A stretch of 37,226 nt of DNA from a virus (lineage: Duplodnaviria > Heunggongvirae > Uroviricota > Caudoviricetes): the IMG/VR virus record IMGVR_UViG_2529292736_000004; one strand, given 5' to 3'. Below the pieces are notes generated by a model. The model had not been told where the DNA came from and made no database searches. It saw only the letters and a program-made list of their open reading frames with translations. A program made the translations under genes and the position numbers. This document shows positions 6,034 through 6,932 of the stretch, piece after piece; the stretch's first letter is position 1; each line of letters starts with the position of its first letter.

Positions 6034-6932
6034 ATGACAAATACAGCAAAAATACTCAACTTCGGCAGAGGTAACTTTGCCGGACAGGAGCGTAATGTGG
6101 CAGATCTCGATGATGGTTACGCCAGACTATCAAATATGCTGCTTGAGGCTTATTCGGGCGCAGATCTGACCAAGCGACAGTTTAAAGTGCTGCTTGCCAT
6201 TCTGCGTAAAACCTATGGGTGGAATAAACCAATGGACAGAATCACCGATTCTCAACTTAGCGAGATTACAAAGTTACCTGTCAAACGGTGCAATGAAGCC
6301 AAGTTAGAACTCGTCAGAATGAATATTATCAAGCAGCAAGGCGGCATGTTTGGACCAAATAAAAACATCTCAGAATGGTGTATCCCTCAAAACGAGGGAA
6401 AATCCCCTAAAACGAGGGATAAAACATCCCTCAAATTGGGGGATTGCTATCCCTCAAAACAGGGGGACACAAAAGACACTATTACAAAAGAAAAAGAAAA
6501 GATTATTCGTCCGAGAATTCTGGCGAATCCTCTGACCAGCCAGAAAACGACCTTTCTGTGGTGAAACCGGATGCTGCAATTCAGAGCGGCAGCAAGTGGG
6601 GGACAGCAGAAGACCTGACCGCCGCAGAGTGGATGTTTGACATGGTGAAGACCATCGCGCCATCAGCCAGAAAACCGAATTTTGCAGGGTGGGCTAACGA
6701 TATCCGCCTGATGCGTGAACGTGACGGACGTAACCACCGCGACATGTGCGTGCTGTTCCGCTGGGCATGCCAGGACAACTTCTGGTCCGGTAACGTGCTT
6801 AGCCCGGCCAAACTCCGCGACAAGTGGACCCAGCTCGAAATCAACCGTAACAAGCAACAGGCAGTCGTGACAGCCAGCAAACCAAAACTCGACCTGACAA
6901 ACACAGACTGGATTTACGGGGTGGATCTATGA
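6034..6932 (+). pseudogene. O: Replication initiator O, reading frame broken by a 1-nt deletion in an A-run (about 6491..6496) inside the ori A+T-rich region
   Basis: N-terminal part (6034..6564, MTNTAKILNFGRGNFAGQERNV...) and C-terminal part (frame +1, ...KRKDYSSENSGESSDQPENDLSVVKPD...WIYGVDL) both match lambda O but are out of frame. Joining them needs one extra A in acaaaagaaaaagaaaag. Confidence 0.8.
6382..6510 (+). repeat. Lambda-type origin: four ~19-bp iterons (O-binding sites) followed by an A+T-rich region
   Basis: atccctcaaaacgagggaa / atcccctaaaacgagggat / atccctcaaattgggggat / atccctcaaaacagggggac at 6382..6468, then an A-rich stretch. Confidence 0.85.

What the first reader, a model, noticed from the sequence alone, without database searches (positions are those of the whole stretch)
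6034..6932. Replication initiator O is split by a single-base deletion inside the origin A+T-rich region
Both halves of O are conserved lambda-like sequence but lie in different frames. They can only be joined by adding one A to the run in acaaaagaaaaagaaaag (about 6491..6496), which lies just past the four ori iterons. If real, the prophage cannot initiate its own theta replication (O absent or truncated to its N-terminal DNA-binding domain), which would make it cryptic. The site is also inside the cis-acting origin, so spacing between the iterons and the A+T-rich region is altered by 1 bp.
Basis: seen in the sequence. Interest (0 to 1): 0.5.

Follow-up and report, generated by a model that had tools for sequence, protein, structure and literature searches.

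The report
Probable sequencing error in lambda O
The lambda-type replication gene O in this E. coli prophage does read as broken by one missing A inside its origin, but the same missing A recurs in error-prone assemblies whose accurately sequenced twins have six A's, so it is most likely a homopolymer sequencing error and not a biological inactivation.

Summary
Window 6491-6495 is A5 where lambda (39143-39148) and nearly all relatives have A6. O is split into 6034-6564 (154 native residues plus a 22-residue out-of-frame tail) and a C-terminal frame ending at 6932. Adding one A restores a 299-aa O with one substitution relative to lambda. The run lies 25 bp right of iteron 4, inside the High-AT-rich part of ori-lambda. 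The biological reading is doubtful. Only 3 of about 1,316 finished E. coli genomes carry A5: an assembly of lambda itself in which 10 of 24 local genes are frameshifted, the 454-only genome IMT5155, and UM146. At least 28 finished genomes with a prophage identical to UM146's have A6. Another A5 carrier equals four or more finished genomes over 12 kb except for one base. Two A5 drafts are riddled with indels, and their finished relatives have A6. In IMG/VR, A5 occurs only in early drafts, on unrelated haplotypes. The window has three more single-base homopolymer anomalies, two of which break genes (tail gene L, istB). In favour of a real mutation: DEC13C, a different strain, shares the allele, and the prophage carries three genuine IS insertions. 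My estimate is artefact about 0.72 and real but ordinary prophage decay about 0.25. Interest is low.

The parts
6034..6564 (+). O, N-terminal reading frame as it stands (176 aa: 154 native residues covering the DNA-binding domain, plus a 22-residue out-of-frame tail, stop TGA 6562-6564)
   Evidence: Pfam PF04492 Phage_rep_O, E=1.4e-36; tblastn with the intact homologue splits into two frames
6382..6468 (.). four ori iterons (O-binding sites)
   Evidence: the repeat finder family D1, 4 copies with spacing 20/24/23; correspond to lambda iterons 39034-39118
6467..6504 (.). High-AT-rich (unwinding) region of the origin, 38 bp here against 39 bp in lambda, 76% A+T
   Evidence: region definition from PMC6022878
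6491..6495 (+). the A5 run (A6 in lambda 39143-39148), where the frame changes
6497..6932 (+). remainder of O (linker and P-interacting C-terminal part) in the other frame; GTG codons at 6558 and 6561 overlap the TGA of the upstream ORF, and gene callers use them to call a 123-124 aa stand-alone ORF
   Evidence: no Pfam hit for this part
6929..7630 (+). P (helicase loader), intact; its start overlaps the O stop codon
   Evidence: 100% identical over 233 aa to the annotated replication protein P of strain F5

Best explanation
The missing A is most likely not missing in the organism. The A6 run in the A-rich tract of ori-lambda (AAAAGAAAAAAGAAAAG) is a place where sequencing chemistries that miscount homopolymers repeatedly report five A's, producing a false frameshift in O. 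On this reading the prophage has an ordinary intact lambda-type O/ori/P replication module. What is shown: the same A5 call recurs on unrelated haplotypes in error-prone assemblies, and accurately sequenced, otherwise identical prophages have A6. What is inferred: that the window's own assembly belongs to this class. Its source record, platform and reads could not be identified.
For: (1) Only 3 of about 1,316 finished E. coli genomes carrying this tract have A5. One is lambda itself in isolate FELIX_MS516, where 10 of the 24 local genes including cI, cro and cII are flagged frameshifted. One is IMT5155, sequenced by 454 pyrosequencing only (PMC4232414). The third is UM146. (2) The UM146/IMT5155 prophage is 100% identical over 9,788 bases to at least 28 other finished genomes (UTI89, NU14, IHE3034, APEC O18 and others), all of which span 9,789 bases. 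Only UM146 and IMT5155 span 9,788. APEC E19035, of IMT5155's own serotype, is the longer form. (3) The A5 carrier L003 equals at least four finished genomes over 12,001 bases except for one base (12,002 in the records), and those genomes read A6. (4) The A5 drafts L026 and L053 differ from finished relatives by 12 single-base indels each against 3 and 16 substitutions, and those relatives have A6. (5) In a sample of 120 IMG/VR contigs chosen without regard to run length, A5-type alleles occur only among early IMG genome ids (4 of 17 against 0 of 103), on different O haplotypes. All four contigs from sub-batch 25261646xx have it. (6) A5-carrying loci have 13 further homopolymer contractions in 93 kb, where about 4 are expected from 118 control loci (38 contractions and 40 expansions in 862 kb); their expansions are near baseline. 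(7) The window itself has other single-base homopolymer anomalies. T6 against T7 at 5318-5323 is also seen in another A5 draft of a different haplotype, L016. T5 against T6 at 34042-34046 breaks tail gene L, and is also seen in draft DEC10F on an 87%-identical prophage and in a frameshift-laden metagenome contig. A5 against A4 at 100-104 breaks istB, and three other IS21 copies have A4. All three broken genes in the window are broken by one-base homopolymer changes, and about 50 other genes are intact.
Against: The window and draft DEC13C are different strains: their IS elements sit at different sites, with clean empty sites and target duplications. Yet they are 100% identical over about 14 kb, including A5 and T6, with no random indel differences. 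That is what inheritance of a real mutation predicts, and under the artefact reading it requires a site-specific systematic error. The window's overall consensus is good: 42 runs of six or more remain and almost all genes are intact. The prophage shows real decay, with three IS insertions. The same tract carries a genuine 7-bp frameshifting deletion in 9-12 finished O55:H7/O157:H7 genomes. The platforms of the window's source, DEC13C, JXMX01, DRR275243 and UM146 could not be established.
Confidence: 0.72

Rival explanations
1. The deletion is real. A one-base slippage in the ori A-tract truncates O after residue 154, so the DNA-binding N-terminal domain is made without the P-recruiting C-terminal domain, and the High-AT-rich region is shortened by 1 bp. 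The prophage cannot start its own theta replication. Ending O translation 365 nt early may also lower expression of the toxic P protein. Such lesions are the kind selected in lysogens that would otherwise die from replicative killing. This would be ordinary prophage decay.
For: The window and DEC13C share A5 although they differ in IS content, as do L003 and L005. Three genuine IS insertions with target duplications show a decaying element: an IS21-family end abutting gam, an IS629-like element between the porin gene and the holin gene, and an IS66-family element between cosB and nu1. A different frameshifting deletion of 7 bp in the same tract is present in finished O55:H7/O157:H7 genomes and annotated as frameshifted. 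Stand-alone O C-terminal ORFs are on record on about 200 contigs. The literature shows that truncated O is null, that r95/r96 deletions here kill the origin in cis, and that O/P/ori mutants are selected as survivors of replicative killing (PMC6022878).
Against: Every A5 call that could be checked against accurate, otherwise identical sequence is contradicted. The allele's distribution follows assembly era or platform and not phylogeny. The window has further homopolymer anomalies that recur in other error-prone assemblies.
Confidence: 0.25
2. The A5 allele is real and tolerated. Full-length O would be made by a -1 ribosomal slip of tRNA-Lys on GAA-AAA-G, which would give exactly the lambda sequence ...KEKRKDY.... 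Alternatively, O would work as two polypeptides, with the C-terminal part re-initiated at the GTG that overlaps the TGA (GTGA).
For: A -1 shift on the run would restore the native amino-acid sequence (reading of the sequence). GTG 6561 overlaps TGA 6562-6564, and gene callers call the downstream ORF.
Against: There is no X XXY YYZ heptamer in the zero frame. The -1 frame A-site codon would be the rare AGA. The downstream RNA has no exceptional structure (-19 kcal/mol, z = -0.84). The GTGA overlap is absent from six of the seven IMG/VR carriers, which read GTG GTT AAA. No isolated phage record has A5 (0 of 131). O alleles lacking even the last 5 residues are null, and the two O domains must be linked to bring P to the origin (PMC6022878; established model).
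Confidence: 0.03

Closest known systems
Phage lambda O gene with internal ori-lambda (NC_001416 38686-39585)
   Same: 98.8% identical over 899 bp. Same four iterons, same A+T-rich tract, and same O-P overlap. The repaired protein differs at one residue.
   Different: One A fewer in the 39143-39148 run. The immunity region (cI/cro) of this prophage is not lambda's.
Classical ori-lambda mutations r96/ori96 (deletion of 39139-39153) and r95/ori95 (39123-39134)
   Same: Same High-AT-rich region; r96 removes the very run in question (PMC6022878).
   Different: Those are in-frame 12-15 bp deletions that kill the origin in cis but leave O protein able to complement. Here a 1-bp change would shift the frame and its cis effect is untested.
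O-null alleles (Oam317 with 160 aa, Oam8 with 205 aa, Oam205 with 294 aa, ilr541c lacking the last 35 codons) and RK-minus survivors of replicative killing
   Same: If real, the product (154 native residues) would fall in this null class and the selective setting would be the same (PMC6022878).
   Different: Those were selected and sequenced in the laboratory. This allele is unverified.
7-bp deletion in the same A-tract in finished O55:H7 DEC5A and O157:H7 genomes
   Same: Same tract, same resulting frame and the same out-of-frame tail (...IIRQRILANPLTSQKTTFLW). PGAP annotates it as 'replication protein, frameshifted'.
   Different: A 7-bp loss cannot be a homopolymer miscount, and it is present in 9-12 finished genomes of one related lineage, so it is credible as biology. 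The 1-bp allele is not supported in that way.
Homopolymer miscounts in flow-based or uncorrected long-read assemblies (for example 454-only IMT5155, or FELIX_MS516)
   Same: A single-base length change in a run of five or more. It recurs at the same site on unrelated backgrounds, and accurate twins have the longer run.
   Different: The platform of the window's own source is unknown, and its overall consensus is much cleaner than that of the worst drafts.

Membership tests
Lambda-type replication module (O initiator with intragenic origin, plus P) | N-terminal Phage_rep_O DNA-binding domain | tested here: met
   PF04492, E=1.4e-36, residues 22-115
Lambda-type replication module (O initiator with intragenic origin, plus P) | Four iterons followed by an A+T-rich region inside the O gene | tested here: met
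   Four copies at 6382-6468; 38 bp at 76% A+T directly after them; colinear with lambda's annotated iterons
Lambda-type replication module (O initiator with intragenic origin, plus P) | P gene immediately downstream, with its start overlapping the O stop | tested here: met
   P at 6929-7630, 233 aa, 100% identical to an annotated replication protein P
Lambda-type replication module (O initiator with intragenic origin, plus P) | Uninterrupted O reading frame of about 299 codons | tested here: not met
   Two frames in the sequence as given; restored by adding one A
Homopolymer-length sequencing artefact | The same one-base change recurs on unrelated haplotypes in error-prone assemblies, while accurate, otherwise identical sequences have the longer run | tested here: met
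   454-only platform of IMT5155
Homopolymer-length sequencing artefact | Other homopolymer anomalies in the same assembly | tested here: met
   5318-5323 (T6 against T7), 34042-34046 (T5 against T6, breaks L), 100-104 (A5 against A4, breaks istB), 35958 (A5 against A6)
Homopolymer-length sequencing artefact | Raw reads or platform of the window's own source show miscounting at this run | not testable with these tools
   The source record was not found. The DEC collection paper is not held.
Genuine frameshifted prophage O pseudogene | Allele present in accurate finished genomes of the same prophage lineage | tested here: not met
   No finished genome carries the window's prophage (best 97.6-98.6% over 25 kb). 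The five genomes with an otherwise identical O gene have A6. The only A5 finished genomes are error-prone or contradicted by their relatives.
Genuine frameshifted prophage O pseudogene | Allele inherited by distinct related strains | tested here: inconclusive
   It is shared with DEC13C, which differs in IS sites. A site-specific systematic error on one platform would give the same pattern.
Programmed -1 ribosomal frameshift site | Slippery heptamer in frame, plus a stimulatory downstream structure, conserved among relatives | tested here: not met
   No X XXY YYZ heptamer in the zero frame (sequence). Downstream fold z = -0.84. Relatives have the in-frame A6.

The most novel reading that the evidence does not exclude
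The A5 allele is real and recurrent. The A-rich tract of ori-lambda would then be a slippage-prone switch (A6 to A5 and back) that reversibly turns a prophage's replication competence off and on, letting lysogens escape replicative killing while keeping a route back to an active phage.
Probability: 0.04. Interest if true: 0.5.

Novelty: not a real feature. Interest (0 to 1): 0.1.

Why it matters
If the base is truly missing, this is one more defective lambdoid prophage, which is a well-known condition. The practical value is a caution. The A6 run inside ori-lambda is repeatedly reported as A5 in public assemblies, including two "complete" genomes. This has placed false truncated "replication protein O" entries in protein databases (for example the 176-aa EHX68444.1). 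Surveys of prophage integrity that count frameshifted O genes should check this run against the sequencing platform. The 7-bp deletion in the same tract in the O55:H7/O157:H7 lineage is by contrast credible biology.

Tried and rejected
(1) I first took the exact 176-aa product in four other assemblies as proof that the allele is real. I dropped this when the carriers proved to sit on many haplotypes but only in early or error-prone assemblies. (2) A single origin followed by recombination fits the two first haplotypes, because all differences lie downstream of the run and all four combinations exist. It does not fit six or more haplotypes with different upstream sequence as well. (3) My interim claim that no finished genome has A5 was too strong, because the 271-bp query was haplotype-restricted. 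An 87-bp query found three. (4) Programmed -1 frameshifting is rejected: no heptamer and no downstream structure. (5) A functional split O with coupled re-initiation is rejected: the GTGA overlap is not conserved, and the literature shows that C-terminal truncations are null. (6) Attempts to identify the window's source through exact look-ups of the O, L and IstB fragments failed. (7) The platform of the DEC collection and of UM146 could not be established: papers were not held or not informative. (9) The promoter scan gave nothing useful for the T-run between cI and cro.

Full report
WHAT IS THERE. The window is a lambdoid prophage of E. coli. Running rightward it holds kil, cIII, ral, sieB, N, a non-lambda immunity region, cII, O, P, ren, the nin region, Q, a porin gene, the lysis genes, cos, and head and tail genes as far as J. 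Positions 6034-6932 are the lambda O gene, 98.8% identical to lambda itself. The four iterons lie at 6382-6468. [quoted passage not shown] Inside that stretch, the run at 6491-6495 has five A's where lambda has six at 39143-39148. As a result, O reads as a 176-aa ORF (6034-6564) made of 154 native residues plus a 22-residue out-of-frame tail. The rest of the gene is in another frame and ends at 6932. Adding one A restores a 299-aa O that differs from lambda's at one residue. One detail of the finding is imprecise: the run is inside the A+T-rich region, 25 bp after iteron 4 and within the interval removed by the classical r96 deletion. It is not between the iterons and that region.

WHAT IT WOULD MEAN IF REAL. 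The literature is clear on this. O alleles stopped after 160, 205, 264 or even 294 residues are null. The r95 and r96 in-frame deletions in this same A+T-rich region abolish origin function in cis, although the proteins they encode still complement. Mutations in O, P or ori are what survive "replicative killing" by a derepressed, non-excisable prophage (PMC6022878). A real A5 allele would therefore be an O-null lesion of an already familiar kind.

FIRST IMPRESSION: THE ALLELE LOOKED REAL. The exact 176-aa product is on record in other assemblies. These are draft DEC13C and a Logan assembly of SRR096911, both 100% identical to the window over about 14 kb. They also include JXMX01 (L003) and a Logan assembly of DRR275243 (L005), which sit on a second haplotype. 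DEC13C is a different strain from the window's source, because their IS elements sit at different sites with clean empty sites and target duplications. A different 7-bp deletion in the same tract is present in 9-12 finished O55:H7/O157:H7 genomes and is annotated as frameshifted. Stand-alone O C-terminal ORFs are on record on about 200 contigs.

WHY I NOW THINK IT IS MOST LIKELY AN ARTEFACT. The first reason is the pattern of carriers in IMG/VR. Seven contigs carry the A5 pattern, on at least six different O haplotypes and with different flanks. I then drew a sample of 120 contigs using an anchor downstream of the run, so the sample was blind to run length. In it, 111 contigs have A6, 4 have an in-frame substitution, 4 have A5-type alleles and 1 has the 7-bp deletion. 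All the A5-type alleles come from early IMG genome ids (4 of 17 against 0 of 103). All four contigs from sub-batch 25261646xx have it. That distribution follows the era of assembly and not phylogeny.

The second reason is that two of those drafts are demonstrably poor. L026 and L053 differ from near-identical finished genomes by 12 single-base indels each, against only 3 and 16 substitutions. Those finished genomes have A6.

The third reason comes from L003. It is identical to at least four finished genomes over 12,001 bases except for one base, and those genomes read A6.

The fourth reason comes from the finished genomes. A haplotype-independent 87-bp query found A5 in only 3 of about 1,316 finished genomes. 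One is lambda itself in FELIX_MS516, where 10 of the 24 local genes including cI, cro and cII are flagged frameshifted, which marks an uncorrected error-prone assembly. The others are IMT5155 and UM146, which share one prophage. That prophage is 100% identical over 9,788 bases to at least 28 other finished genomes, including UTI89, NU14, IHE3034, APEC O18 and APEC E19035 (IMT5155's own serotype). All of those are one base longer, and only UM146 and IMT5155 are short. IMT5155 was sequenced by 454 pyrosequencing only and assembled with Newbler (PMC4232414).

The fifth reason is a general excess of contractions. Leaving aside the ascertained site, A5-carrying loci have 13 further homopolymer contractions in 93 kb. 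About 4 are expected from 118 control loci, which show a symmetric 38 contractions and 40 expansions in 862 kb.

The sixth reason is the window itself, which has further one-base homopolymer anomalies:
- T6 against T7 at 5318-5323, between cI and cro. This is also seen in L016, another A5 draft on a different haplotype.
- T5 against T6 at 34042-34046, which breaks tail gene L. The same broken product occurs in draft DEC10F on a prophage only 87% identical, and in a metagenome contig full of split genes.
- A5 against A4 at 100-104, which breaks istB. Three other IS21 copies have A4.
- A5 against A6 at 35958, which is intergenic.
All three broken genes in the window are broken in this one way, while about 50 others are intact.

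WHAT STILL SPEAKS FOR A REAL MUTATION. The window and DEC13C share A5 and T6 and show no random indel differences over about 14 kb. Under the artefact reading that requires a site-specific systematic miscount on a shared platform. This is plausible given how often the site is hit, but it is not shown. The window's consensus is otherwise good, with 42 runs of six or more retained. The prophage really is decaying, because it carries three IS insertions:
- an IS21-family end abutting gam at 525
- an IS629-like element at 12428-13736, with a 3-bp duplication
- an IS66-family element at 17609-20690, with an 8-bp duplication, lying between cosB (cosN at 17421) and the nu1 start
I could not identify the window's source or the platforms of DEC13C, JXMX01, DRR275243 or UM146.

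ALTERNATIVES CONSIDERED. Programmed -1 frameshifting would restore the exact lambda sequence. It lacks a slippery heptamer in frame, has no notable downstream structure (z = -0.84), and is not conserved. A split O re-initiated at the GTG overlapping the TGA is not conserved either, because six of the seven IMG/VR carriers read GTG GTT AAA. It also conflicts with the null phenotype of C-terminal truncations. No isolated phage record carries A5 (0 of 131).

VERDICT. I put the probability that the A5 run is a homopolymer miscount at about 0.72, and that it is a real but ordinary inactivating frameshift in a decaying prophage at about 0.25. The remainder goes to more exotic readings. Either way this is not a new kind of system. 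The useful by-product is a warning that this particular run generates false O pseudogenes in public data.

Noticed in passing
window 34042-34046: Tail gene L is frameshifted by a T5 run where two close relatives have T6. The exact 67-aa N-terminal fragment also occurs in draft DEC10F, on a prophage only 87% identical, and in a metagenome contig with many split genes. This suggests another recurrent homopolymer miscount.
   Followed up: partly
window 5318-5323: T6 against T7 in the cI-cro intergenic (operator/promoter) region, shared with DEC13C and with the unrelated A5-carrying draft L016. Between 4497 and 7029, this indel and the O run are the only differences from strain F5.
   Followed up: partly
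window 1-524 (run at 100-104): The 3' end of an IS21-family element abuts the prophage inside gam, so exo, bet, xis and int are not adjacent. Its istB is frameshifted by A5, where three other IS21 copies have A4. Whether the left arm is deleted or only interrupted cannot be seen from the window.
   Followed up: partly
window 12428-13736: IS3-family (IS629-like) element of 1,309 bp with intact orfA and orfB and a 3-bp target duplication (GAC). It is inserted between the porin gene and holin gene S, within the late transcription unit. It is absent from DEC13C.
   Followed up: partly
window 17609-20690 (cosN at 17421-17445): IS66-family element of about 3.07 kb with tnpA, tnpB and tnpC intact and an 8-bp target duplication (GAATGAAC). 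It is inserted one base upstream of the nu1 start codon's context, separating cosN/cosB from the terminase genes.
   Followed up: partly
window 10836-11918 (minus strand): An OmpC-like porin gene (360 aa) is carried as a moron between antiterminator Q and the lysis genes. It is conserved in many related prophages.
   Followed up: no
L010 (NZ_CP038394.1, O55:H7 DEC5A) 2153-3045, and L119: A 7-bp deletion in the same ori A-tract (AAAAGAAAAAAGAAAA reduced to AAAAGAAAA) frameshifts O in 9-12 finished O55:H7/O157:H7 genomes. Because of its length it is credible as a real, inherited lesion. The truncated product (P0004) is on 39 contigs.
   Followed up: partly
L140 (NZ_CP163516.1, isolate FELIX_MS516): This RefSeq 'complete' chromosome carries phage lambda with 10 of 24 local genes flagged frameshifted, including cI, cro, cII and O. 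It appears to be an uncorrected error-prone assembly.
   Followed up: no
L138/L139 (IMT5155 and UM146) against one search hits: Two early finished genomes share A5 in O, while at least 28 finished genomes with the identical 9.8-kb prophage have the longer form. Their 'frameshifted' O annotation is probably an error in the deposited sequences.
   Followed up: yes
window 6558-6564: Two GTG codons overlap the TGA that ends the truncated O ORF (GTGGTGA). Gene callers therefore emit a 123-124 aa stand-alone 'replication protein', which is on record on about 200 contigs in three sequence variants.
   Followed up: partly
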